This document shows, in pieces, positions 12,830 through 37,534 of a DNA stretch of 64,000 bases. Location of the stretch: assembly GCA_964016885.1 (NCBI GenBank), contig OZ024741.1, forward strand, positions 14,322,001-14,386,000, in the 5' to 3' direction. The first letter of the stretch is position 1, and every line of letters begins with the position of its first letter. The notes below the pieces were generated by a model that ran no database searches, was not told where the DNA came from, and saw nothing but the letters and a program-made list of their open reading frames with translations. The position numbers were made by a program, and so were the translations under genes. This DNA comes from Eledone cirrhosa (taxonomy: Eukaryota).

Positions 12830-13039
12830 CTCGTATACGAGAGACGTGTGTTGACGTGTGTGAACAAGCTCGGCTACCGAGTCGGATTTACTTACTCAAA
12901 AGTGAGTTTTGATTAATTTTTTAAAACTGTAATATACGTTAACCCCTTGCCTGGGTCGTCAAACTTTGAGTTTATTTATTTTCGCCCCTTTTGGGGGCGA
13001 ATTTTCCAGTTAAAAACTTATTACGGCAAACTAATAGAA

Positions 13040-14812
13040 ATGGACGGAACTTTCACATCTCATCCTAACGTGAAAGCCACGCCCCCTAAGAAAGGTGACA
13101 CAGAGAAGCTAGAAGCACAAGGCTCTAAGTCTTCCCTCCTCACTTCTGCAAAAGAAACATGGAACACGGAATTAAAAGAAAAATTTGTAAAAATGGGTGA
13201 AAACCCAGAAAGTCACATAAACGCAGACAAAAACAACAACGACAATAACAGCAATAGTCACAACACCAACCAAGGAAAAAATAACGATAACACCAAACAA
13301 AGCGAACCCACTACTGGTGCCTCCTTTGCACAGGCGGTCCGGAAAACACAAACCTGCAAGCAACTGGACATTACAACTCTGAGAGAAAAGATGAAGGAAG
13401 CGAAACAGTATGTAACTTTCAAAGAAGGAGGAGACTTCACAATCACCTCCCCACAAGAAATCAAAAGAGACACGACGCTAAGAACGATATCTTTCAGAAC
13501 AATTTCCAACATAACAAGGAAACCAGCTCAATTATCCCAAAAAGAGATTGAGCTGGTCCTAAAAAATGTGTGGAGTGATATATCGTTCATACAAAAAGGG
13601 CCACTCTATGGGAATATAACGGTCCTAATGAAGGATCAATTGACGGCCAGGAAATACTCTGTGGCGCCAATTGTTTCCAAGCTACATACATTTTTCCCCA
13701 CATATTTAGGGAAAAGAACGCAGAAAATAAGGGTCTCCGGAATCCGGCCAAATGCATGCATTTCCTGGGTACTAACAGGATTTTTAGAAGACGAGGACGG
13801 AATCCTCTCAGTAGGAGAAGTCACCACAGACGTTTTCGGCGGTTTGAGCGTGGAGGTTCTGGTCCAAATGAGACCAGAACGAATAGCTAGAATACGACAG
13901 AGGGTCTCCCTCGATGGAGAAACATTTATATACATTTCAGCCGAGGGTAGGAGGCCCATATGTTACTACTGTTCAAGCAGGGGTCATCTAAGGGCTGCTT
14001 GTCCTCAATTGACAAAAAAAAAGGCTCTTTTGCCTACACCCCACACACCACCACCGCCACCACCACCACCACCACCACCACCACCACCTCCACCACCACC
14101 ACCACCACCACAACAACAACAAAAACAACACGGAAAAATAACACAAGACACGGCCCCACCCAAAACAACTCCCAAAACACACACAAATACAACAAAACCC
14201 CAAAATACACCACTACCCGACAGCACGGACGAGGACCCAGCTGAAACGGCACCTAGTGACGAAGAGGGGGAACCCTTCCAACCTGTAAAAAGGAAAAAAA
14301 GAAAGCACCACTCGAACATAAACGAAACAAACACACAACCACCAACAAAAACAAAACAAACAGAACAAACAAAATCCTCCCCACCCCAAAACATAACACA
14401 TACAACAAAACGTAAGCACACACAAGAACAACAAACAAACACAACACAAATAAAACAGTATACATACATTAACACAAATAACAAAGAACTAGTAAAAACA
14501 ATACACAAAGACCCTTCGGTGGAAACTGAAGGGCAATTCTTTGCAAACGCGGCCAACAAACCGCATTTAAAAATGATAATACTCCCAATGGACACCTATG
14601 CAAAACTAAGAGAGAACTTTCCTGAGGACGTGGGGAAAACATGTACTCGACCCTATAACCGCGTCCTCTTGAAACGTTTCCCCACCCACACCTCACCAAA
14701 ACCCCCACTCCACCACAGAACAACACCCCACCAAACAACCCCTCCAATACGCCCATGGATATTGTGCAACCTGCTCCTCAGGAGCCGAACAGGTAGGTCC
14801 TTCCTCTTTTAA
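13040..14812 (+). CDS. Tx1-like ORF1 (gag-like, one CCHC zinc knuckle)
   Basis: CYYCSSRGHLRAAC, Pro/Thr-rich region, KRKKRK; homologous to ORF1 of copies B and D. The C-terminus is probably frameshifted (homologous stop at 14794-14796). Confidence 0.8.
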   Translation: MDGTFTSHPNVKATPPKKGDTEKLEAQGSKSSLLTSAKETWNTELKEKFVKMGENPESHINADKNNNDNNSNSHNTNQGKNNDNTKQSEPTTGASFAQAVRKTQTCKQLDITTLREKMKEAKQYVTFKEGGDFTITSPQEIKRDTTLRTISFRTISNITRKPAQLSQKEIELVLKNVWSDISFIQKGPLYGNITVLMKDQLTARKYSVAPIVSKLHTFFPTYLGKRTQKIRVSGIRPNACISWVLTGFLEDEDGILSVGEVTTDVFGGLSVEVLVQMRPERIARIRQRVSLDGETFIYISAEGRRPICYYCSSRGHLRAACPQLTKKKALLPTPHTPPPPPPPPPPPPPPPPPPPPPQQQQKQHGKITQDTAPPKTTPKTHTNTTKPQNTPLPDSTDEDPAETAPSDEEGEPFQPVKRKKRKHHSNINETNTQPPTKTKQTEQTKSSPPQNITHTTKRKHTQEQQTNTTQIKQYTYINTNNKELVKTIHKDPSVETEGQFFANAANKPHLKMIILPMDTYAKLRENFPEDVGKTCTRPYNRVLLKRFPTHTSPKPPLHHRTTPHQTTPPIRPWILCNLLLRSRTGRSFLF

Positions 14813-14817
14813 CCAAC

Positions 14818-17800
14818 ATGGCTGATATAAGAGTTGGGTGTCTGAATGTACGCGGCCTGGGACTGTCTTGGAAACAAGGCAAACTTTTAAACGATCTCAG
14901 GTCGCATAGAATGGATGTAATGGCTATTTGCGAGTCCAGGATCAGCAGCGAGCACCAACTGGCGCCCCTCTTCGACGACTTTGAGATCTTCGCATCTCTC
15001 TGTCAACCGGGGGGGGGGGGTGGAGTTGTCGTTCTGCTGCGAAAACACCTGGGCCTCGCCATACAGAAGGTGCACCTGGACCCGGAGGGTCGACTGGTGG
15101 TTTTAGACGTCGGCAGTAGTGAAAGTGGAGCCCTTAGACTAATAGCTGTGTACGCCCCTTTTTGGGCAGCGCGGCCGGAATACTTCCAACGTCTGGAAAC
15201 TTTTCTGGGAACGTCCCGCTCCTTGCTTTTAGTGGGGGACTGGAATGGTATCCTGGATGCACGATGGGACTATGTAGGGGCATGTGCCAATAGAGGGGGG
15301 TGTAAAAGCCTCAAAAGGTTAATCGGCCGATTTGACCTGGCCGATAGATATCGACTAGATTTTCCGACTGTACCACTATGGACGTGGACCAATCGTAGCG
15401 GAACATCTAGGTCGTACCTAAATAGGGTCCTAGTTAGAGAGAAGGATAGGGACACATTTAGCTGTCCAAAAATGTTCATGGTTGACTATTCGGATCACAA
15501 GTTAGTGACCTGCATAGCCAACCTTGATAGAACCTATAGACAGGGACCCGGTTACTGGAAGCTGAACTTGTCCTTACCGAGAAGCAAAGCTTACAATAAA
15601 CGGATTAGCACGTTAGTTAAGCAGAGTTTGACAGGGGCAATTGTCAACAACAGGTGGTGGAGCTCTCTTAAGAGAGCAATTAGAATAGAATCGATAGGTT
15701 TTAGTCAGGAATTAGCAAGGGATAGGAACAAGACGGAAAGGGAATTAGTAGATAGAGTAGAAGAGGCGATTAGGAGTGGCAATGTAGCCGGCGTGCTGGC
15801 ATCAAGAATGGCCTTAGACCAGTTCTTTGAGGTGAAGCATGAAGGCTGCGTTGTCAGGAGTAAAATACGTGCTCTGTGTAATGAGGGAGCCAAAGCTGTG
15901 AGCTGGGCCCGAGTGACAGAGGCAAAAAGTGGGAACAAGTCCACGATTCGGTCTTTGAAGGACCAGGATGGGTGTGTGATCCTTGAACCTGGGCAGATGT
16001 GTGCGGCCTTTCAGCGGCACTTTGCACGACTGTTCGAGAGGGGCGGCGCGCCGGGTGAGACTATGGATTTCAATCCATACCTCGACGGTATGCCACGCCT
16101 CTCGGACGCGGAGGCGAAGTCCTGCGAAAGGACGATTTCAGCTGCTGAGATAGGGGCGGCGCTGAGCCAATGCGGCAAACGCAAATCCCCGGGTCTCGAT
16201 GGTCTACCATACGAGCTATATGTAGCGATGCCGGACTTGTTCTCTGATATCCTCGAAGCGGTCTACTGCAACTGGCAGCAGAACGGGAGAATTCCCAGTT
16301 CTGTGACCAAGGGCGTAGTTACGCTGGTGAGGAAGGATGAGAACAAGGGGGATGACATAAGTAACTTCAGGCCCATAACTCTGCTAAATACAGAGTTAAA
16401 GATTTTGGCCAAGGTGTTAGCGAAGAGGTTGGCGCTTGTCGTTGGAAACCTGGTGGGAGAAGCGCAGACATGCGCAATCCCGTCCAGGTCCATTCCCGAC
16501 AATCTCCACCTTATGCGATACATAATAGAGAGGGTAGGGAATGAACCCGGCTTTGGTGGGGCCCTGATCAACTTGGATCAATCTAAAGCTTTCGATAGGG
16601 TTGACCATCGTTACCTGGATGCGGTGCTCGCGGTGGCAGGCTTCGGACCCGTTTTCAGGGGTTGGATTGCTGCGATGCTAAGCAGCAACGTCTGCTCAAG
16701 GGTCAAGGCGAACGGCCACCTCTCGGAGCCGTTCCAAATCATGCGATCCATCCGACAGGGATGCCCTCTATCCTCCCTTCTGTATGTGCTGGCTCTTGAG
16801 CCACTACTGCGGAAGTTGGAGCGGTTGCAGGGCATCCCTTTGGAACCAGAATTGCAGAAAGCAGCGTCGGCCTACGTCGATGACGTGACAGTAATGGTGT
16901 CGAGAACCTTGCAAATCGGTGAGATCGGCACCTTACTGGAGGAATATGAAAGGTTTACAGGAGCCAAGCTGCACCGGGACAAGTTCGTCGGTTTGCAACT
17001 CGGAACATGGAGAGGAAAACCGATGCCCTCCAACGACGTCGTCGGACGCTGGACGGAGGGCCGGGTGAAGCTGCTTGGGGTCTGGTTCGAACCAGACCTC
17101 CAGGTGGAGAAAAACTGGAACGAGGTAACGGCCAGGGTGTTTGCACTCGCCCAGAAGTGGGCCCAGTGCAAACTATCCCCGAAAGGTCGAGCGGAGGTGG
17201 CGAACGTTTATATAGCATCCGACATCTACTACCGCTTGACCAGTGAAAAGACTCGTCAAAATGGAGTGCGCGCTGTTCCAATTTCTTTGGAACAAGTGGA
17301 CCCTTTTGGTGAGGAGATCCATCTGCTGTCAACACCCTTCGAAAGGAGGGCTGGGGATGCCGTGGCTACAGATGCGGAAACACGCATTAAGGCTAGGGCA
17401 CCTCCAGGTATTCCTCACCGGTCAACCGGTGTGGGCCCCGTTTGTGAGGCGAGCCTTTCCCAGACTCGTCTCGCTCACCGAGCTGCAATCCTGGGTCAAG
17501 CAAAGACCGAGAAAAGTGGGCGACTGGCACATTGAATGTGCCCAGGCGCTCACGGCCCTCTGGAAAGCGGACCCGGCAATCAGTGGAGACTCCACCTCGA
17601 CATTCTATAGAGGGTTGGTACGCAGCAGGTGCGACGATGCTCTCGGAGAAGCTCTAGGCATGGAGGAAGATGAACTGGCCAGTCTGTTCGGTAGGACGTT
17701 TGGCCCTGGACCGATGGACAACTTCCAAAAGTCCCTGGCTTGGCAGTGCTACCGAGGGGCTCTACCCGTTCGAGACAGGCTCAACAGGCATGGGAGCCTG

Positions 17801-18241
17801 GGTAGGGATCCTTTGAATAAGATCTGTCCGAGATGCGTGCATGACGACGAAACTGTTGCGCACGCATTCGTACACTGCCCAGGCATTGCTGACCTGTGGG
17901 GCTATGTGGAACGACTACTGTCGAGGGTGGGACCAATCCGGTTGACCACCGAGTCCATCGTCACGATCAAACCGCCTCCCCCTTTTAAAAACGAAGGAGA
18001 GGCGGTTTTTCTCTGTGTGATAGCCATGGCTAAAGAAGTTGTATGGTGAACGAGGCTGAAAGGGCTGAGGTCAGACACCTTTCTCTCCGGCCAACAACTG
18101 GTCCCCTTTTTCAAATACCATTTTAAAAGAAGGATCAGAATGGAGAGAGAGGTGCTTTACCCCAGCAAGTTTTATGAAAGGTGGGTGAAAGTAGGGAGAA
18201 TAGTCAGAGTGAATGGGTCTTCTCTCTATATCAGCCTGTAG
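14818..18241 (+). pseudogene. Tx1-like ORF2 (APE endonuclease, RT, C-terminal zinc finger)
   Basis: CLNVRGL, CESR, VYAP, GDWN, SDH; KSPGLDG, FRPITLLN, LDQSKAFDRVDH, RQGCPLS, YVDD; CPRC..H..C. Frameshift at ~17243, TGA at 18047, and SYLD changed to SYLN. Confidence 0.92.
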
Positions 18242-19359: not shown

Positions 19360-20862
19360 TAGAAGTGGTTACACAACAGTTAGGTCACCATACTGAGAAA
19401 ACATTTGTTTCACCTTAGCGGATCCTCAGCTCGTAATGTACATGGTTATAGGGAACCAGAAGGACAACCGTACGAACGCGCATGCGCAGAAACGATCACT
19501 TCACACAGGCAATACTAAATTGCGTGCGAGAGGTGAAAGGGAGATAACTGCGAAAGTCCGAAAGTTTGTAGTTGATAAGAAAATTAGGATGTTGTTGTAA
19601 TTCAATCCGGAGCTTTGTAGTTATGTAAGAGGTGTTTCCAGACGTGTGGACAACGTGTGAAGAATTCACTTCTCGTGTTTAGGCAATCACTATTGCGTAA
19701 TCTCTTTAGAATATTTATTCGTTTATCAATACATAGTCCACACAACGGATTGCCCCTTGCGTATGGCTTGGAGTAGTCTATACTTGAGTCTTTGAGGGAC
19801 CATACGTGGCTCGCGAGTTTCTTGGATGAAGTCTGTTCGGGTACCTAAAGGTCGACTGGCGGTTCAGGAAGGTGTTCCTTAAATCTGCCCTCCACCATAC
19901 CCACATAGGATTTGACTTCCTGTGGTTGATTTGGTCGGTTGGAAGTGACCACAGCTTCATAAACTACAGCGGGGGTGTTGCATTGCTGTCGAAGAGGACA
20001 AGCTTCGGCCTACGGCAGGAGCACCCTGGTGGGTGTTGTTCTTAGGGCTGTTGGTGATGTGGGCCTCATGTTCTTAGCGCAGATGTATCCTAGATTTACG
20101 TTGTGTCGGTTAAAGATGGAGCGGTATTTATGACCTATGGGAAAGTGTCTATCTAAGAGGGCTAGAAATTGTTTGCCTACATTGGTTTTAACGTTGAGTG
20201 AGAAGGGAGGAGAGAACCAGATAGTTTGTCTATTGTTACGCTTTCTTTTCTTATTGCTTTTGTTGTTAGTAGGAGAGTAAGGGATAGGTTGCGAGAAGCC
20301 GCTGTTATCTAATGCCGTGTTATAGTGGGGTGCCGCCCTGTCAAAGATAGCCTTATTAGAGGAGAGATTTGAAATTCTAGTACTGATATTATTTACGAAG
20401 TTTCTAAAATCAGTGGGAGGGTGGCAGGAGTCCTTGTGAATGTAATTGAGTTTTTCGTTTAGCTTATGGAAGGGTCTGTGCGTGTGTGTGTGCGAAAGTC
20501 TAAATTAATGTCTAAGAAATCTACGCTAGATAGGTTGGTGGCTACTGTTATCCTAAGGCCTAACTCATTGAAGGTAGAAGCTAAGTCTTTTTTAAACCGG
20601 TCGAGGTCGTGACCACTTTTATGGCTCGATAAGGTCAGTCCATCGTCGCGGTATATTCCCGTGTGGAAGTCCGGGAATCTAACACGTAATATGTATAAAA
20701 TAAAAAGGCCAACCAAGTCACATACGTCAGCACTGTCAAACGATCCCATGGAGACGTCGAACAGGTGTGAAGATGTAGACTTCTTTGCCCAGGCTACTCC
20801 GTCGTTGAAGAGGAGGGTTTTCCGGCAGTGAGCGATGATTTCCCTGTCTAAACCATCGACGT
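19360..20862 (-). mobile_element. Penelope-like element, Naiad-type RT and GIY-YIG (5'-truncated, degraded)
   Basis: RT: MGSFDSADVCDLVGLFIL, GIYRDDGL, VDFLDINL, S.HPP, IWFSPPFSLNVKTNVG. EN: CSC..CPL...C, VVYEAVV...SYVGM, CGLC, LNTRSEFFTRCPH. Several frameshifts. Confidence 0.85.
19393..19433 (-). ncRNA. Hammerhead-like motif in the 3' pLTR of the Naiad-type PLE
   Basis: Minus strand reads CGAG-CTGAGGA-TCCGCTAAGGT-GAAA-CAAATG-TT-TTCTC; core intact, stems short. Confidence 0.5.
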
Positions 20863-23936: not shown

Positions 23937-24000
<64 letters not shown>

Positions 24001-24261
24001 TAAATACCCACATATAAAACCAAATATAAACAAACACATATATATGCATGCAGAAACATACACCCATGTAAGCACGTATATATATATATTTTTTAATTGT
24101 TTTTATATATGCACATACCTACATAGATACATACACACACACACATACATACATACATACACACACACATACAAACATACATAAATCAATCCTTAGATTT
24201 GCTTTTCCGCATTCACACTAACAATCTAACAATCTATCTATATATAGGTAAGGATGCATAA

Positions 24262-24362
<101 letters not shown>

Positions 24363-24818
24363 AAGTCCATAGAATCATTAGATAAAATATATACAGTATT
24401 TCTTCTCCCAATCAGCATAAATCAACCTCATAAAAATCATTTAAACGAGGTTATAAGTTTAAAATATACTTATGAAGAAATAATAGACAAATTATGTAGC
24501 TTCTTCTACGCGACTTACAGCTACACAAAATTTACCTAGTATTTCTGATAGCCCGTAGAAATTGACTAGACATATAGTTAACCATACACAATTAGGTACA
24601 AAATCAAAGTTAGAAGAAAAAAATGTACATAAACATACCCAAATCATCAAAATATTTCTACCCCCGGCGGTTTCATTCCATTTTTGGATATATCCGATCT
24701 TGGAAAAAATCAACGAGGTTTGGAAATATTTTTCAACCATGATACTCGACAAATATTTTTCAACCATGATACTCGCCAGAAACGAATTCAATACACACCA
24801 CACATACATATGCATATG

Positions 24819-24932
<114 letters not shown>

Positions 24933-24974
24933 ACGAAACATAAGTCAATTGCATGAACTCATAATCCTTTATTT

Positions 24975-25029
24975 ACTGCATACATATTTCGATGGTAGCC
25001 ATTGAATGGCTATGACCTCATCAGGCAGT
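24975..25029 (-). ncRNA. Type I hammerhead ribozyme-like motif
   Basis: Minus strand reads ACTGC-CTGATGA-GGTCATAGCCATTCAATGGCTACCATC-GAAA-TATGTA-T-GCAGT. Stem I is ACTGC/GCAGT, stem II is long, stem III is near-palindromic; the cleavage-site register is imperfect. Confidence 0.6.
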
Positions 25030-25288
25030 TACTAAGTTCTTAGATATGCTAGCTCTGTGTTTATGGTGTTGATGGTATCAGAGCCTTGGGAGATATGTAT
25101 ATATACATCGCTCTAGAGTGATGTACTTGATAGACATTTTATATATCGACCCCGGTACTTGATAGATATTTTATTTTAGCAGTTCCGGGAAAGATGAAAA
25201 CATTAACTATGGCAGGATTTGTAATCAGAACGTAGTCAGATGAAATAGTAACAACACTGATAGATAAATGAGAGAGAAAAGACGAAGG

Positions 25289-26570
25289 TAACAACAACAA
25301 CAGTAACATCATCAACAATACCACCACCAACAACAACTACGATAACAGTCACACCATCAACAATACCTCCAACAACAACATCAACAATAACTCCAACAAC
25401 AACAACAACATCAACAATACCTCCAACAACAACAACAACATCAAAAATACCTCCAACAATAACAACATCAACAATAACACCAACAACAACAACAACAACA
25501 TCAACAATATCTCCAACAACAACAACAACATCAACAATACATCCAACAACAAAAACAACATCAACAATACCTCCAACAACAACAACAACAGTAACAACAT
25601 CAACAATACCTCCAACAACAACAACAACAACATCAACAATACCTCCAACAACAACAACATCAACAATACCTCCAACAACAACAACAACAACATCAACAAT
25701 AACACCAACAACAACAACAACAACATCAACAATATCTCCAACAACAACAACAACATCAACAATACATCCAACAACAAAAACAACATCAACAATACCTCCA
25801 ACAACAACAACAACAGTAACAACATCAACAATACCTCCAACAACAACAACAACAACATCAACAATACCTCCAACAACAACAACATCAACAATACCTCCAA
25901 CAACAACATCAACAACAACAACAACAATACCTCCAACAACAACATAAACAATACCTCCAACAACAACAACATAAACAATACATCCAACAACAACAACATA
26001 AACAATACCTCCAACAACAACAACAATACCTCCAACAACAACAACAACAACAACAACAATACCTCCAACAACAACATCAACAATACCTCCAACAACAACA
26101 ACAATAATACCTCCAACAACAACAACAACAACATCAACAATACCTCCAACAACAACAACAACAACAACAACAATACCTCCAACAACAACATCAACAATAC
26201 CTCCAACAACAACAACATAAACAATACCTCCAACAACAACAACAACAATACCTCAAACAACAACAACAACAACATCAATAATACCGCCAACAACAACAAC
26301 TACAACAACAATAATACCTCCAACAACGACAACAACAACATAAACAATACCTCCAACAACAACAACAACAATACCTCAAACAACAACAACAACATAAACA
26401 ATACCTCCAACAACAACAACAACAATACCTCAAACAACAACAACAACAACAACAATACCTCCAACAACAACAACATAAACAATACCTCCAACAACAACAA
26501 CAACAATACCTCAAACAACAACAACAACATCAACAATACCTCCAACAACAACAACATCAACAATACCTCC

Positions 26571-26601
<31 letters not shown>

Positions 26602-27425
26602 TCAACAATACCTCCAACAACAACAACATCAACAATACATCCAACAACAACAACAACAATACCTCCAACAACAACATCAACAATACCTCCAACAACAACA
26701 ACATCAACCTTACCTCCAACAACATCAACAATACCTCCAACAACAACAACATCAACAATACCTCCAACAACAACATCAACAATACCTCCAACAACAACAA
26801 TACCTCCAACAACAACAACATCAACAATACCTCCATAACAACAACAACATCAACAATACCTCCAACAACAACAACAACAATACCTCCAACAACAACATCA
26901 ACAATACCTCCAACAACATCAACATCAACAATACCTCCAACAACAACAACATCAACAATACCTCCAACAACAACATCAACAATACCTCCAACAACATCAA
27001 CAATACCTCCAACAACAACAACATCAACAATACCTCCAACAACAACAACAACAATACCTCCAACAACAACATCAACAATACCTCCAACAACAACATCAAC
27101 AATACCTCCAACAACAACAACAACAACATCAACAATACCTCCAACAACAACAACAACATCAACAATACCTCCAACAACAACAACATCAACAATACCTCCA
27201 ACAACAACAACAATACCTCCAACAACAACATCAACAATACCTCCAACAACAACAACATCAACAATACCTCCAACAACAACATCAACAATACCTCCAACAA
27301 CAACAACATCAACAATACCTCCAACAACAACAACAACAACATCAACAATACCTCCAACAACAACAACACCATCAACAATAACTCCAACAACAACAACAAC
27401 ATCAACAATACCTCCAACAACAACA
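25289..27425. repeat. (AAC)n-derived minisatellite, AACATCAACAATACCTCC(AAC)n
   Basis: Read directly; explains the poly-Leu ORFs. Confidence 0.95.
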
Positions 27426-28359
27426 AGTTTAGATAAGAAAGAATGAGAGTAGAAATAGCAGATGTGACAAGACGGAGTGAAGTTTGTATTGACATAAGAC
27501 AGAGCTGGGAATAGGGTCGTTTAGTACAAAACAATTGATTATCTGGACATAAGACAGCATTGGTAGTACTACTAGTAGTAGTGGTGGTGATGGTGGTGGT
27601 AGTAGTAGAGGAAGCACTGCAGTAACACTATATATAAATATATGTACATACGTAATACATACATACACGCTCATACACACACATTCACAAATATGAGTGT
27701 GTGTGTTTGTGTGGGTGTGTGCGTGTGTGTGCGTATGTGTGCATAGTGAAATTTGGTAGATGGAAGCTATACGAAAGCCCAGCGAATGAACTCTACCTGC
27801 AACAAGATGCTCCAACCTAGTCCCTCAATATGTCACGCTAAATCACGTTTAGTATACACGTGTCTGTGGAATTCTTGCTATTTACACTCATTCTTGGAAT
27901 CGGAAGTGGTTTGTTACATTTTCTGTGAGATTATTTCAATGTTAACTTCACTGAGTTGTTCCTTGTATGTATGGTCCCGTAACTCCCGAGGTAATCGTAG
28001 AGTCAGCGTACAGAGATGTGGCGTTTCTAGCACCTCTTTAAACCTAGCAGAGCCCATATCCCCTCTCTATGTCGGAATACAGCAGATTTCTTCCAAAGAA
28101 GGATAGAGATAGTTAGAGAATAGAAGTGAGAAAGAAATATAGAGGAAGAATTGCCCCCTGTACTACACTGCTACTTTTGATCGACCTCGAATGGATAAAA
28201 GGCAACATTGACCTTGATGGAGATTGTACTCAGCAGAAAGCTGCAAAACATTCTATCCGACTAATTACTGTTAATTTGCTACCGAGCTGTTTTTCTGAAT
28301 TCTTCCCACAGGGGAAGCTTTTGGAAAAGTCGCTGTGAAAGGTTTTACTTATTATAGTA

Positions 28360-28869: not shown

Positions 28870-28945
28870 TACACCTTTTTATTGTATGTAAACTCCCCCC
28901 TTTGTAATTGTCCCCTTCTTTTGTGCCTCTGTGGCTAATAAAGAA
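28870..28945 (+). mobile_element. Extremely 5'-truncated Tx1 (3' UTR only)
   Basis: TATGTAAACTCCCCCCTTTGTA..TTGTCCC..AATAAAGAAA matches the 3' ends of copies A and B; TSD-like ACATATCTATCTAT at 28853 and 28946. Confidence 0.75.
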
Positions 28946-28977
28946 ACATATCTATCTATTATATATATATATAAGTT

Positions 28978-29223
28978 TATCCAGGGTTTAATCGGGGGTA
29001 ACCACAGTAAGTAACATACTCAATACAAAGCAGAGTATAAATATTTAATATAGAAAGCTTTCTACAGGACTAGAACTGTTTCATTCGCGAGAAATCATCG
29101 GCTTCCTGATGATTTCTCCCGAATGAAACAGTTCTAGTCCTGTAGAAGCTATTTCTATATTAAACATTTATATTCTGCTATGTATTGAGTACCTTACTGT
29201 GGTTACCCCCGATGGAACCCGGG

Positions 29224-29226
<3 letters not shown>
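28978..29226. mobile_element. Palindromic PLE pLTR-like element with head-to-head hammerheads
   Basis: ~120-bp imperfect inverted arms centred at ~29103; flanked by (TA)n and (CA)n. Confidence 0.8.
29100..29150 (+). ncRNA. Type I hammerhead ribozyme
   Basis: GGCTTC-CTGATGA-TTTC-TCCC-GAAT-GAAA-CAG-TTCTAGTC-CTG-TA-GAAGCT; stems I, II and III all pair; GUA site. Confidence 0.8.
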
Positions 29227-29295
<69 letters not shown>

Positions 29296-29376
29296 GTTAT
29301 TCCGGGTTGAATCGGAGGTAACCACAGTAAGTAAGGTACTCAATACATAGCAGAGTATAACATTTTTAATATAGAT

Positions 29377-29429
29377 GAGATTCTACAGGACTAGAACTGT
29401 TTCATTCTTTAGAAATCATCAGGAATCTC
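29377..29429 (-). ncRNA. Type I hammerhead ribozyme
   Basis: Minus strand reads GAGATTC-CTGATGA-TTTC-TAAA-GAAT-GAAA-CAG-TTCTAGTC-CTG-TA-GAATCTC; perfect 7-bp stem I. Confidence 0.85.
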
Positions 29430-29432
29430 TGA

Positions 29433-29485
29433 GGGATTCCTGATGATTTCTAAAGAATGAAACAGTTCTAGTCCTGTAGAATCTC
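29433..29485 (+). ncRNA. Type I hammerhead ribozyme
   Basis: GGGATTC-CTGATGA-TTTC-TAAA-GAAT-GAAA-CAG-TTCTAGTC-CTG-TA-GAATCTC; mirror arm of 29377-29429. Confidence 0.85.
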
Positions 29486-29486
29486 A

Positions 29487-29531
<45 letters not shown>

Positions 29532-29532
29532 C

Positions 29533-29745
29533 ATTAGTGCAGATTAAAAGTTTGAGCAATAAACTACTGCTTTCACCCTAATCAGGCTGTGCTGAAACTG
29601 AGTTTCAGGTGAAAAGCAGTAATTTAGGGTGAAAGCAGTAATTTATTGCTTAAACTTTTAATCTGTACCAATAATAAATATTTGCTGAATGGGTTTATAT
29701 ATACTTATTTATATAGAATCACTATCGAGTCCTCTCTTATTGTTA
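29533..29745. mobile_element. Second-family fold-back pLTR-like element with variant-core hammerhead topology
   Basis: Inverted arms centred at 29600. Minus strand 29549-29599 reads AGTTT-CAGCACA-GCCTGATTAGGGT-GAAA-GCAGTAGTTTATTGC-TC-AAACT. Confidence 0.6.
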
Positions 29746-30254: not shown

Positions 30255-30900
30255 GGGGAGGGGAGTTGAGTCCATGAGGGAAACCAGACCCAGGGCGGTA
30301 AATCAGACTCTGTTCAGTCCTGGTGACGAGGCCTGTGATCCGTGATGTAAAGGACACCAAGTACTGAGACTTGTAGGGAAGAGTGACCTGAGGAACGGAA
30401 ATGACAGGGCGACGGCATCATTCAGAGCGAGTCGTATGTCCCCCCAAAACGGTTCAGCACAAAAGTCCACCAAACGGCGTCCCGTTTGTCCGATGTATAA
30501 GGACCTGCAAAGGGAACACCGGAGGGCATAGACAACGTGGATGTATAAGGACCTGCAAAGGGAACACCGGAGGGCATAGACAACGTGGATGTATAAGGAC
30601 CTGCAAAGGGAACACCGGAGGGCATAGACAACGTGGATGTATAAGGACCTGCAAAGGGAACACCGGAGGGCATAGACAACGTGGATGTATAAGGACTTGC
30701 AAAGGGAACACCGGAGGGCATAGACAACGTGGATGTATAAGGACTTGCAAAGGGAACACCGGAGGGCATAGACAACGTGGATGTATAAGGACCTGCAAAG
30801 GGAACACCGGAGGGCATAGACAACGTGGGTAGAGATGCAAGTGAAGGAGTGGCGGATACGGAATAAAGCGTTGGGGCCTGTGAGGGCGGTGTAGACCCGC
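30255..30900 (-). mobile_element. Penelope-like GIY-YIG endonuclease 3' fragment (Neptune-like)
   Basis: HSFTCISTHVVYALRCSLCRSLYIGQTGRRL...DIRL...AVA, and C-terminal EQSLIYR.GS..PHGLN. Confidence 0.85.
30492..30827. repeat. 48-bp tandem repeat x7 encoding HVVYALRCSLC(R/K)SLYI on the - strand
   Basis: 336 bp = 7 x 48, in frame. Confidence 0.97.
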
Positions 30901-32768: not shown

Positions 32769-34679
32769 ATGTTAAACGAAGCTAACGAAAATAGTGGTGG
32801 GGGGACAGCGGTAAGAGTTGTAAGCTCGCACGCTTTAGCCCCCCCCCCCTTCCTTCCCAACTAACGTCATAGAGAAGGAAAGAAAAAATAAAAGAAAAAC
32901 AGACGAATGTGCGGAGAAAAATGACGAAAACACAAATCTGGAGATTGATTCCAACAACAAAAAAAATTTGAAAGAATTGCATGACAATATTAATACCACA
33001 AACAAAGAAACAACAAACACAAAAATAACATTTGAAAACAACAGCATAACAGAAAGCAAAACAGACGACAAAGTCAACACCAATAATATCTCATTTGCAC
33101 AAACACCAAAAAAATCTTTAACATATATACCTGAAAATATTTCAGATGTGGCACAAAGAATAAAAAACGCCAAACAATATATAACTCAAGGGGAAAATGG
33201 AACCTTATCGGTAAAAATGCCCCAAGAACTCACCAAAGATATTGAAAGTCGGACGGTCGTTTTCCGTACCATCAACAACATCTCAAAAAAACCTCAACAA
33301 CCAACACAAGCAGAAATTAAAGCAGTACTTACAGAAGTACTTAATGAAGCCACTTTCATAAGAAGAGACAGACTGTATGGAAGCCTAGCCATTATTATGA
33401 AGAACGAATCAGCGGGAAAAAAATATGCTTTGTCGCCGATTCGTTCGACAAATTTTACCTTTTATCCATCTTATATGGGTAAAAGAACTCAGCGCATATG
33501 GCTGGATGCGATGATGCCAGATGTGGACTACTGCTGGCTCATAGCTGGCTTCATCGATCCAGCGAATGACAACGGGATTTCCATTGGGAAAACCACAGGC
33601 AATGCGTTCAGTGGAACAGGTATAGAACTTGTAGTGCAAATGAAGCCTGAACACATTGCCTAAATACCCGACAGCATCCTATTAGAGGCCCACGGGTATA
33701 TAAACATTCGCGTGGAGGGGAGAAGGCCGTCCTGTCATATCTGTGCAGGCAGAGGGCACCTGAAGGTGGCTTGTCCCCAACTCAACAAGAAGAAAACCCT
33801 GCTACCAACACCAGCTCCACCACCACCACAACCGATAAACAAACAACAAAACTCAGTCCCACCCAACCCATCCCTCAGTAAAACTACACCACCACCACAG
33901 CACAAACAGACACAACACATTACCCCAAAACAAAACACAGTCCCACCCAACCCCTCACTCAATAAAACAACACAACTACCGCAGCCACAACACACAACAC
34001 AGTCTAACATAGTGACATCCATCTCCCCCACAAAGAAAACTAACACGGAAACATTACCAGCAAACATACCTCTTCCCTCCAACACTGAAGATAACCCAAC
34101 GAATTCGGAGGAAGAAACGGAGTCCTTCAGACAGATTAAAAGGAAAAAAAGAAAACATGTGCAAAACACACAAGGCCAAACAGCGCCTACCCAAATGTCA
34201 ACACAATCCAACAAAACACAAAACACCCCTCCAGTAACAAACAAAACCAAACCTGCCCCTCCCCTCTTCGAAACACTCACGCCATCCGAAAAAAAAAGAC
34301 ATTACACTATACTTACATCAACAGAAACAATAATAAATTAAATGAACTCATAAACAATAACCCTTCGGTACAAACCGAAGGGGTAAACTTTGTTTCTTCA
34401 GAAAACTACCCACATTTAAAATTAATAAAGATCCCAATGAACCTCTACCAAAAATTAAAAAAGGATTTTAAGGAGGACGTAGGACCACCCTCTGTCAAAC
34501 CCATAAACCGCGTCCTCCTAAAAAGCTTTCCTCCTCCCCTTCCCCTCCCCAACACAACTTCAAACACCCCAACCCCACCACACACAGACGACCCCACACC
34601 ACCACAAGACACCCCTTCACCCAACACCCCCGACCCCATGGAAGTCGTGCGACCCGAAACCCGGGAAGCAGAAAGGTAG
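32769..34679 (+). pseudogene. Tx1 ORF1 (disrupted)
   Basis: CHICAGRGHLKVAC knuckle; stop at 33661 and frameshifts. Confidence 0.8.
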
Positions 34680-34712
34680 GTCTCTACACTCTCCTTTGGC
34701 TCTGCCGCCCAC

Positions 34713-37534
34713 ATGGATGTGTTAAGAGTAGGATGTTTGAATGCACTTGGCCTGGGCTCAACTTGGAAGCAAGCAAAGCTTCTAAATGACCTCAGGTCAC
34801 ATGGTATAAATGTAATGGTTATCTGTGAGACTCGGATCAGCGTCGTGCGGCAGCTGGCCCCTACCTTCGATGACTTTGAGGTGCACGCATCTCTCTGTCA
34901 ACCTGGAGGTGGGGGTGGGGTTCTCGTACTGCTGGAAAAACACCTGGGTCTCGCCGTACAGGTTGTTCACTCGGACCCGGAAGGTCGTTTGTTGGTGCTA
35001 GACGTTAGCAGTAGTGGAGGTGCGGCTTTGAGACTGCTCGCCGTCTACTCCCCTTTCGGAGATGAACGACCCGACTTCTTCCAGCGTCTGGAGACTTTTC
35101 TGGGAACGTCGCTTTCCTTGCTTCTAGCGGGGGACTGGAATGACATCCTAGATGCACGTTGGGACTATGCAGGAGCATGTCCTAATAGAGGGGGGTGTAA
35201 CAGCCTCAAGGGGTTATTCGACCGTTTTAACTTGGTCGATAGATATCGACTAGATTTTCCAACTGTGCCTACCTGGACTTGGACGAACCACACTGGCCAA
35301 TCTAGATCGTACTTAGATAGATTCTTAGTTAGAAGTAAGGATAGGGACATATTAAGCTGTCCAGAAATGCTCACGGTTGGCTATACAGATCACAAATTAG
35401 TGACCTGCGTAGTCAACCTTGAGAGAACACATAGACAGGGTCCCGGTTACTGGAAACTTAATTTGTCTTTACCGGCAAAAGAGGCTTACAGAGACCGAAT
35501 TAGCAGATTAGTTAAGGAGAGGTTGACGGGTGCAATCGTCAACAACCGATGGTGGGCATCTCTCAAAAGAGAGATTAGAACAGAATCAATAAGTTATAGA
35601 AAGATGTTAGCTGCCGATAGGAATAGGAACGAGAAAGAATTAACAGGTAAATTAGAAGAGGCAATCAAGAGCGAAGATGTGGCCAGAGTGCTGGCATCGA
35701 GGACGGCCTTGAGCCAGTTTTTCGATGTAAAGCACGAAGGCTGCGTCATTCGAAGTAAAATAGTGCTCTAGGTAATGAGGGGGCCAAAGCCGTTGGCTGG
35801 GCCCGCGTGACAGAAGTTAAGAGTGGAAATCGATCCACCATCCGGTCTTTGCAAGACGAGGATGGACGGGTGATCCGGGAGCCTAAGCAGATGTGCGAGG
35901 CCTTTCAAAGGCACTTTGCCCGATTGTTCGGGGGAGGCGGGGGTCCGGGCGGGGACGTGGATTTCGGTCCATAACTCGACGGCCTGCCGCGTCTCTCGAG
36001 CGAAGAAGCAGAGTCCTGCGAGCGACCAATCTCGGCTGATGAGATCGGGGATGCGCTGAGCCAATGCAGCAGACGCAAATCTCCAGGTCTCGATGGTATA
36101 CCTTACGAACTTTATTTGGCAATGCCGGTCTTCTTCTCCGAACTCCTCGAAGTAGTCTACTGCAATTGGCAGCAGAACGGGAGAATTCCTTGTTCTGTAG
36201 CCAAGGGCGTAGTCTCGCTGGTGAGGAAGGACGAGAACAAGGGGGATAGTATAAATAATTTTTGGCCCATAACCCTGCTAAACACAGAGTTAAAGATTTT
36301 GGCCAAGGTGTTAGCAAAGAGGTTGGCACTTGTCGTGGGTAGCCTGGTGGGAGATGCGCAGACATGTGCTATCCCATCCAGGTCCATTCACGACAACCTC
36401 CACCTCATGCGATACATTATAGAGAGGGTTGACAACAAACCCGGCTTCGGTGGGGCTCTGATCAACTTGGATCACTCTAAGGCATTCGATAGGGTCGACC
36501 ATGGTTACCTGGATGCGGTGCTAGCGGCGGCAGGGTTCGGTCCTGTTTTCAGAGGCTGGATCACTGCCCTTCAATTTCTTTGGAAAAAGCGCCCTCCTAT
36601 GGTGAGAAGATCCATGTGCTGCCAACAACCTTCGAAAGGAGGGCTGGGGATGCCGTGGTTGATGATGCGTAGGCACGTATTAAGGCTACGGCACCTACAG
36701 GTATTCCTCACTGGTCAACCGGTGTGGGCTCCGTTCGTGAGACGAGCCTTTCCGAGACTCGTCTCGCTCACCGAGCTGCAGTCCTGGGTCAAGCAAAGAT
36801 CCGGAAAACTGGGCGACTGGCACACCGAGTGTGCCCAGGTGCTCAGGACTCTCTGGCAAGTGGACCCGGCTATCGGTGGAGAATCCACCTCGTCATTCTA
36901 TAGAGGGCTGGTGGCTAGCAGGGGCGATGACACCCTTGGAGAGTCGCTGGACATGGAAGAGGACGAACTGGCCAGCCTGATCGGTAGGACTTTCGGCCCG
37001 GGACCAATGGACAACTTCCAGAAGTCACTGGCCTGGCAGTGCTACCGGGGGGCTCTACCCGTTAGAGAAAAGCTCTACAGACACGGGCGCCCGGGCAGGG
37101 ATCCCTCGAAAAAGATTTGCCCTAGATGCGTGCGTCACGGGGAAACCGTTGCGCACGCATTGGTGCAATGTCTGGGCGTGGCTGATCTGTGGGGCTACGC
37201 CGAACGACTGCTGTTGTGGGTGGCGCCGATTCGATTGACCGCCGAGTCCGTGATGACAATCAAGCCGCCTCCCCTCTTCACAAAGGAAGCAAAGGCGGTT
37301 TTTCTGTGCGTAATAGCCATGTTGAAAGAGGTTGTTTGGTGGACACGATTGAAAGGTCTGAGGTCAGGCAACTTCCTCTCTGGCCATAGTCTGGTCTACT
37401 TCTTCCGATATCACTTCGGAAGAAGGATAAGAATGGAGAGAGAGGTGCTTGGCCACAGGCAGTTTTATGAAAGGTGGGTGATAGTGGCGAGAATGGCTCG
37501 TGTAAATGGGCCTTCTCTGTATACCATCCTGTAG
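34713..37534 (+). pseudogene. Tx1 ORF2 (disrupted, internal RT deletion)
   Basis: APE motifs, then GWITA fused directly to LQFLW at ~36569; QGCPLS and YxDD are absent. Confidence 0.9.

What the first reader, a model, noticed from the sequence alone, without database searches (positions are those of the whole stretch)
28978..29492. Head-to-head type I hammerhead ribozymes in adjacent palindromic mini-elements, with stem covariation
Seen: two adjacent fold-back elements, each with mirror-image hammerheads. Three have an intact core (29100-29150 +, 29377-29429 -, 29433-29485 +) and a fourth has CCGATGA. All share CTGATGA / TTC-loop-GAA / GAAA-CAG-TTCTAGTC-CTG-TA. Stem I covaries between elements (GCTTC/GAAGC versus GATTC/GAATC) while loop II varies freely (TCCC, TCGC, TAAA). 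The first stem II pair is an unusual U-U. Known: Penelope-like elements carry type I hammerheads in their pLTRs and often insert as partial inverted repeats. Inference: an ORF-less PLE-derived or retrozyme-like family whose transcript from either strand has a ribozyme competing with a long dsRNA hairpin.
Basis: partly seen in the sequence, partly recalled or inferred. Interest (0 to 1): 0.75.

Follow-up and report, generated by a model that had tools for sequence, protein, structure and literature searches.

The report
Fold-back stubs of a Hydra retroelement
The two mirror-image ribozyme repeats are short end-pieces of an abundant protein-coding Penelope-like jumping gene, a known kind of genomic debris, and their fixed ends likely record how that gene's uncut RNA is copied into both strands of a TA repeat.

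Summary
In detail: three intact type I hammerhead cores and one broken one, in two fold-backs. They are not an ORF-less family. Element 2's long arm matches the pLTR of a full-length Penelope-like element at 132 of 135 nt; that element has an intact 713-aa RT/GIY-YIG frame with Hydra-clade motifs. Element 1 comes from an older sister subfamily. One 24-mer of the ribozyme occurs 30,797 times in the genome. The stem I covariation is two compensatory changes between the two subfamilies. The U-U pair is common in Hydra ribozymes (14 of 25 published families). The CCGATGA core is a junction artefact. In an unbiased sample, 31 of 34 fold-backs have one long and one short arm, and 59 of 68 arms start near the ribozyme's 5' edge, about 30 nt below a TATA box. 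This likely reflects two cDNAs running off an uncut, capped RNA (no RNA data). Inverted pLTRs with hammerheads are published, and this scan already noted the same pattern many times, here and in other genomes. Element 1 is unusual in having two long arms.

The parts
28974..29099 (-). Element 1, left arm: older-subfamily (A) pLTR end with tail ('long' end); hammerhead cut inside the core at the junction, so predicted dead
   Evidence: 117 of 126 nt to subfamily-A copy L069
29100..29226 (+). Element 1, right arm: subfamily A pLTR end with tail ('long' end)
   Evidence: 120 of 127 nt to L069; 109 of 117 to the left arm
29100..29150 (+). Type I hammerhead motif: stem I GGCTTC/GAAGCT, core 29106, stem II TTC/GAA with U-U base, stem III ACAG/CTGT with 8-nt loop; predicted cut after 29144
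29227..29294 (.). (CA)n(TA)n microsatellite between the two elements; TA runs also flank them at 28958-28973 and 29494-29529
29295..29429 (-). Element 2, left arm: young-subfamily (B) pLTR end with tail ('long' end); intact hammerhead core 29422-29384; begins with one G that is not in the parent
   Evidence: 132 of 135 nt to the 5' pLTR of full-length L174
29430..29432 (.). Three-base junction insert (TGA) between the two arms of element 2
29433..29493 (+). Element 2, right arm: subfamily B, 'short' end at about +54; intact hammerhead core 29440-29478; predicted cut after 29478
   Evidence: 59 of 59 nt to the left arm, 58 of 59 to L174
29866..29917 (+). Decayed tail fragment of the same family, no ribozyme
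   Evidence: 77-84% over 38-52 nt

Best explanation
Both fold-backs are short insertions of the pLTR-plus-tail end of a Hydra-type Penelope-like retrotransposon, and each was likely made by two reverse-transcription events on an uncut element RNA, one per strand of a TA repeat, whose products were then likely joined head to head. Shown: the parent element, the two subfamilies, the TA target, two fixed 3' ends (about +54 to +67 and about +130 to +137 from the core C), and 5' ends clustered about 30 nt below a TATA box. Inferred: the element's endonuclease nicks both strands; its RT starts at the short site on one strand and the long site on the other; both copies run off the capped RNA start, which lies at stem I of the ribozyme; the two ends are joined by microhomology or a few added bases. 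The stubs lack the TATA box and are likely dead. The ribozyme is likely under selection only in the parent, and likely silenced in the fold-back by its own complement.
For: Parent: L174 has pLTR, tail, a 758-codon open frame (713 aa from the first Met), a 3-kb TA/TG-rich 3' region and a second pLTR. Motifs RWR, DKT, YRDD, CxCX5C, C-terminal VY...YIG, CxxC and CxH match the Hydra description in PMC8557442 section 11. 20 of 40 listed hits are identical over 201 nt of the ORF start; 14 of 30 fetched are open over the 551 codons held. Subfamily A also runs into a decayed copy of this ORF (L134). Architecture, from the places of the first 100 hits (99 fetched): 105 arms, 34 head-to-head pairs; 31 of 34 long+short, 3 short+short; 33 of 34 same subfamily; rare loop II variants shared by both arms in several pairs; 59 of 68 5' ends within -12..+8. 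In 201 other loci, 51 of 56 pairs were long+short. TATAAATA starts 36 nt above the core C in both subfamilies. Genome-wide, G precedes AGATTCC 1,868 times and A or T 416 times, where the parent has C (5,879 with CCC). In vitro, a PLE protein nicks and extends both strands, starts RT at two internal sites that define the tail, and uses uncut RNA (PMC11167929).
Against: Element 1 itself is long+long, seen in 0 of 34 and 0 of 56 other pairs, so it does not follow the rule. The transcription start and cap are inferred from DNA only. About half of the 30 extra-G junctions inspected can be explained by the partner arm or the flank (judged by eye), and fold-back copying on stem I would also add a G. 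In subfamily A, most of the 11 of 17 extra-G cases are similarly ambiguous. The 5' cluster also coincides with stem I, so RT stalling there is not excluded. The in vitro work is on a Poseidon-clade element, not Hydra. Pfam gives only a weak GIY-YIG hit (E 0.019, below cut-off). The end-mapping sample comes from one end of one chromosome and was picked by an exact 24-mer.
Confidence: 0.7

Rival explanations
1. Same parent element, but one cDNA only: RT stalls at stem I, the cDNA end snaps back on itself or on the target, and the second arm is copied from the first (ordinary 5' truncation with inversion).
For: Arms of young pairs are nearly identical (for example 59 of 59 in element 2; 231 of 231 and 66 of 66). 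5' ends coincide with stem I. Several junctions read ATG before AGATTC, which is what copying the other strand of stem I would add. PMC8557442 calls such arms 'inverted 5'-truncated' copies.
Against: It does not explain why the second arm ends at one fixed site that also ends single and full-length copies (L174's downstream pLTR), nor the TATA box at a fixed 30 nt in two subfamilies, nor arms with one or two G's directly after a TA flank (L257, L258).
Confidence: 0.2
2. The stubs are copied from a non-coding, retrozyme-like derivative (tandem units holding promoter, ribozyme and tail) that borrows the Hydra enzyme.
For: An ORF-less array with units of about 1.07 kb made of this pLTR, tail and 3' region exists (L281; 7 ribozymes at 1065-1097 nt spacing). 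Subfamily A copies did not continue past the tail in 30 loci chosen for a non-TA end. Retrozymes are reported to derive from pLTRs (10.64898/2026.07.22.740005).
Against: The stubs hold only sequence shared with the coding element, which is abundant and young. Only one such array was inspected. Subfamily A does join the ORF in L134. The mechanism of insertion would be the same.
Confidence: 0.08
3. The palindrome is itself the mobile or functional unit, with ribozymes on both strands competing with a hairpin.
For: Both cores are intact in element 2 and in 12 of 34 sampled pairs; fold-backs are the commonest form (68 of 105 arms).
Against: Junctions vary between copies; 22 of 34 pairs have at least one broken core; arms mirror the parent's subfamily variants. 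A neighbouring family with no evident ribozyme forms the same kind of fold-back (29540-29666). The hairpin is over 100 kcal/mol more stable than the ribozyme fold.
Confidence: 0.02

Closest known systems
Hydra clade of C-terminal-endonuclease Penelope-like elements (Craig et al. 2021, PMC8557442; seen: passages, section 11, supplement search and part 2 of 59)
   Same: RT then GIY-YIG; RW[K/R], DKT, CxCX5C, CxxC and CxH motifs; (TA)n target; hammerhead in the pLTR; inverted copy and one-sided tail; U-U at the base of stem II in 14 of 25 listed Hydra families (counted from File S2).
   Different: Not the listed family Hydra-1_Obim: different ribozyme, and my 16-nt and 7-aa motifs have 0 hits in the supplement text held, in which long sequence runs are cut. 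Longer element (about 6 kb in L174 against under 3 kb), tail about 70 nt against 30-40, loop III 8 nt against 1-3, RWR for RWK.
[quoted passage not shown]
   Same: Type I topology, extra nucleotide at the 5' end of helix II, palindromic loop III, most copies solitary or truncated, and pairs on opposite strands 100-700 bp apart already reported.
   Different: No G10.1-C11.1 pair; stem II only 3 bp; stem III of 4 bp could close as a monomer; arms directly abut.
PAc Poseidon element in vitro (Frangieh et al. 2024, PMC11167929; seen: passages and section 3 part 2)
   Same: Two internal RT start sites flanking the tail, AT-rich target, both strands extended, ribozyme cleavage not needed, ribozyme at the start of the open frame.
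   Different: Different clade; that paper does not, in the parts I read, link the two sites to one long and one short arm of an inverted insertion or to a capped start.
Animal non-LTR retrozymes (Li, Clavereau and Pollet 2026, 10.64898/2026.07.22.740005; seen: part 1 of 5, supplements not seen)
   Same: Non-coding, type I hammerhead, derived from pLTRs; the array L281 fits this.
   Different: Defined as head-to-tail tandem units; the window's elements are head-to-head, promoter-less and about 60-135 nt per arm.

Membership tests
EN+ Penelope-like element | Single ORF with RT and GIY-YIG endonuclease linked to this pLTR | tested here: met
   L174 frame of 758 codons begins inside the pLTR; YRDD at 392, VY...YIG at 631; Pfam GIY-YIG only E 0.019; 1,403 homologues at E<=1e-20, top hits 38-54% identical
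EN+ Penelope-like element | pLTRs in partial tandem or inverted, hammerhead inside, one-sided tail | tested here: met
   L174 has two pLTRs; 23 of 30 ORF-bearing copies show an upstream TATA-bearing pLTR (by eye); 31 of 34 fold-backs have the tail on one side
Hydra clade | DKT in place of DKG | tested here: met
   DKT at 161
Hydra clade | RWK motif | tested here: inconclusive
   RWR at 83, a conservative change
Hydra clade | CxCX5C linker; CxxC and CxH near the C-terminus | tested here: met
   CNCLNKEAC at 611, CDLC at 711, CMH at 739
Hydra clade | No CCHH motif in the endonuclease | tested here: inconclusive
   No CxxC between VY and YIG, but two cysteines 9 apart lie there; not aligned to reference elements
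Hydra clade | (TA)n insertion preference | tested here: met
   window flanks and most loci printed; not counted against a background
Hydra clade | Groups with Hydra elements in an RT phylogeny | not tested
   Only compared by eye with the Hydra-1_Obim and Hydra alignment text shown
Type I hammerhead ribozyme | Core CUGANGA, GAAA, NUH and three stems | tested here: met
   three arms; 98.2% of cells paired in a 9-sequence hand-picked alignment
Type I hammerhead ribozyme | G10.1-C11.1 pair | tested here: not met
   U-U instead; same in 14 of 25 listed Hydra families
Type I hammerhead ribozyme | Self-cleavage | not testable with these tools
   Predicted share of the hammerhead fold in single arms is 0.07-2%
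Non-LTR retrozyme | Head-to-tail tandem units each with a hammerhead | tested here: not met
   window elements are head-to-head; met only by array L281 elsewhere
Non-LTR retrozyme | Circular RNA of unit length | not testable with these tools
   no RNA data laid

The most novel reading that the evidence does not exclude
Thousands of such fold-backs are a genomic record of the Penelope insertion reaction: an enzyme dimer primes both target strands at two different fixed RNA sites, copies uncut capped RNA up to and including the cap, and joins the two cDNA ends. The element's RNA start and both RT start sites could then be read straight from the genome, and the ribozyme would be shown to play no part in making them.
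Probability: 0.55. Interest if true: 0.5.

Novelty: new member of a known kind. Interest (0 to 1): 0.28.

Why it matters
How Penelope-like elements build inverted pLTRs and one-sided tails is named as an open question in PMC8557442. A young family with intact open frames and two sharp end sites gives exact predictions for an in vitro assay like that of PMC11167929. It also warns that head-to-head hammerheads in such genomes are retroelement debris, not ambisense ribozyme RNAs, and that Rfam misses them. The architecture is published, and this scan has noted the long/short rule and the TATA-linked start before, so this locus adds one more family and a genome-wide count of the extra G.

Tried and rejected
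Rfam: no hammerhead hit. Looking for a shared sequence after the tail in 30 subfamily-A loci with non-TA ends found none; the link to the ORF came from same-strand ribozyme pairs and L134. Walking upstream through L071 led into a different, LINE-like 3' end: 29 other loci held no same-strand ribozyme downstream; rejected as part of this family. Rows dropped before the pair count: 8 copies of one ribozyme fragment carried inside another repeat, 5 short decayed tandem bits in L038/L039, one edge-cut arm, and duplicates from overlapping loci; 1 of the 100 listed places was not fetched. column counts contain some misaligned rows, mostly in the 18 subfamily-B rows, and were used only for majority letters. 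Sequencing runs: no RNA holder listed; nothing was laid. Gap patterns to count pairs genome-wide were not accepted, so the share of fold-backs rests on the sample. Lunse et al. 2017 on dimeric PLE hammerheads is not held; I know it only through a review passage (PMC6765202). Literature searches listed no paper on this family or on a capped-start origin of the fold-backs; the library lacks most subscription papers, so this is weak. Covariation test on 9 hand-picked arms: one pair changed on both sides, reached by 423 of 500 shuffles; it reflects two lineages, not many events. Twin-hairpin idea from earlier notes: small hairpins do follow both ends (-3.6 to -7.6 kcal/mol), but I ran no control.

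Full report
Observation. The stretch 28974-29493 holds two fold-back elements in TA-rich microsatellite. Hammerhead cores lie at 29106-29144 (+), 29440-29478 (+) and 29422-29384 (-); a fourth arm reads CCGATGA. A relaxed scan of the 64-kb window finds only the three intact ones and none in 20 shuffles. The fourth arm is cut inside the core, and its CC is the complement of the first two bases of the other arm, so it is a junction artefact. Rfam has no matching hammerhead model.

Copy number. A 24-mer from the ribozyme's 3' half has 30,797 exact matches in the 3.0-Gb genome, with 0 for the reversed control. Not all are independent: 8 of the first 100 are one fragment carried in another repeat, and at least one tandem array exists.

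Parent element. Two same-strand ribozymes 6 kb apart on contig C1 flank an open frame of 758 codons, 713 aa from the first Met (L174). The frame starts inside the pLTR, and the 'tail' of the window's arms runs straight into it. The protein has RWR, DKT, YRDD, CxCX5C, a C-terminal VY...YIG, CxxC and CxH, the marks given for the Hydra clade in PMC8557442; the lack of CCHH and the phylogeny were not settled. It has 1,403 homologues at E<=1e-20. The family is young: 20 of 40 listed hits are identical over 201 nt, 14 of 30 are open over the 551 codons held, and 23 of 30 have an upstream TATA-bearing pLTR (by eye). It is not the published Hydra-1_Obim, whose ribozyme differs.

Two subfamilies. Element 2's long arm matches the L174 pLTR at 132 of 135 nt, and its arms match each other at 59 of 59. 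Element 1's arms match the older subfamily A at 117 of 126 and 120 of 127, which joins a decayed copy of the same ORF in L134. The majority letters of A and B differ at 7 of 51 ribozyme positions: two compensatory pairs in stem I (C-G to A-U, G-C to A-U) and three loop II bases; the other 35 positions from the core C to the cut site are unchanged. Flanks are about 74% identical upstream and 86% downstream. This points to selection on the ribozyme in the parent lineage, but it is two events between two lineages; a shuffle control on 9 arms was not decisive.

The U-U pair. File S2 of PMC8557442 shows T after CTGANGA and T before GAA in 14 of 25 Hydra families (my count), so it is ordinary for the clade. 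What differs is an 8-nt loop III with a central CTAG; two copies are predicted to pair at -12.8 kcal/mol against -1.4 for the monomer hairpin, which fits the dimer model of PMC4209133. The hammerhead fold is a minor state in single arms (0.07-2%). Activity is untested.

Architecture. In loci taken from the first 100 hits (99 fetched; dropped rows listed under Tried and rejected), 68 of 105 arms form 34 head-to-head pairs. 31 of 34 have one long and one short arm, 33 of 34 are from one subfamily, both cores are intact in 12 of 34, and junctions mostly differ, with repeats only where microhomology explains them. In 201 further loci, 51 of 56 pairs are long+short. Young-subfamily ends pile up at +54, +61 and +130. 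59 of 68 5' ends lie within -12..+8 of the core C. TATAAATA begins 36 nt above that C in both subfamilies, which puts AGATTC 30 nt below the TATA box. Genome-wide, AGATTCC is preceded by G 1,868 times and by A or T 416 times, while the parent has C. About half of 30 such junctions inspected are explained by the partner arm or flank, so a copied cap is suggested, not shown.

Mechanism. PMC11167929 shows a PLE protein that nicks and extends both strands of AT-rich DNA, starts RT at two internal sites that bound the tail, and uses uncut RNA. Applied here (inference): one strand is primed at the short site and the other at the long site, both copies run to the RNA start at stem I, and the ends are joined. 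Whole ribozymes in both arms show directly that the template was not cut at GUA. The stubs lack the TATA box; a Drosophila Penelope has an internal TATA-less promoter (PMC2377424), so residual transcription is not excluded. In read-through RNA the sense ribozyme always follows its complement, and the hairpin is worth -111 to -174 kcal/mol.

What does not fit. Element 1 has two long arms that differ at 8 of 117 aligned positions plus indels; 0 of 90 other pairs were long+long. It may be a rare event with both starts at the long site, two templates, or later repair; unexplained. An ORF-less array of about 1.07-kb units of the young pLTR exists (L281), so a non-coding donor for some stubs cannot be excluded.

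Known and new. Hammerheads in pLTRs, opposite-strand pairs, inverted copies, tails and TA targeting are published (PMC4209133, PMC8557442). My four searches listed nothing on this family or on a capped-start origin, but the library is incomplete and one key paper was not held. Earlier notes of this scan report Penelope ends in this genome, the long/short rule and, in other genomes, the TATA-linked start. One search gave me the word Hydra and the hint of an end rule before I tested them; I read after my own end and TATA analysis. Verdict: a real feature, a new family of a known kind, interest 0.28.

Noticed in passing
window 29540-29666: A third fold-back from another repeat family directly beside element 2, with no evident hammerhead; sister copies (L024, L042, L003) also look long on one side and short on the other.
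   Followed up: partly
window 19644-20848 (-): Remnant of a different Hydra-like ORF, 35-48% identical to the L174 protein.
   Followed up: partly
L281 (G000:C1:83677500-83687000): ORF-less tandem array of about 1.07-kb units made of the young pLTR, ribozyme, tail and TA/TG 3' region: a retrozyme-like derivative. The strand imbalance (4,244 against 1,635) hints at larger arrays.
   Followed up: partly
L174:1800-4960 (-): The parent's 3' region carries about 3 kb of mixed (TA)/(TG) repeats that are part of the element, so it spreads its own target-like sequence.
   Followed up: no
L031, L035, L036, L037, L043, L052, L212, L250: One ribozyme fragment captured inside another multi-copy repeat: 8 of the first 100 hits share both flanks.
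   Followed up: partly
window 28871-28950: End of yet another repeat that also abuts a ribozyme arm in L019 (94% over 80 nt): several elements stack in the same microsatellite.
   Followed up: no
window 12917-18046, 32839-37531, 53868-57186: Three copies of a two-ORF LINE-like element with endonuclease and RT frames; a further RT frame at 5304-7775 (-).
   Followed up: no
window 30444-30876 and about 24000-27500: A near-perfect 48-bp tandem repeat, and a long 9-15-bp-period CA-rich array.
   Followed up: no
L179 (G000:C1:19366000-19375900, -): An alpha-tubulin-like open frame of 388 codons (recognised from recalled motifs) lies between two ribozyme stubs.
   Followed up: no
L174 pLTR and L134: Small hairpins follow both end sites (GCAC/GTGC after the long end in both subfamilies, with different loops).
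   Followed up: partly
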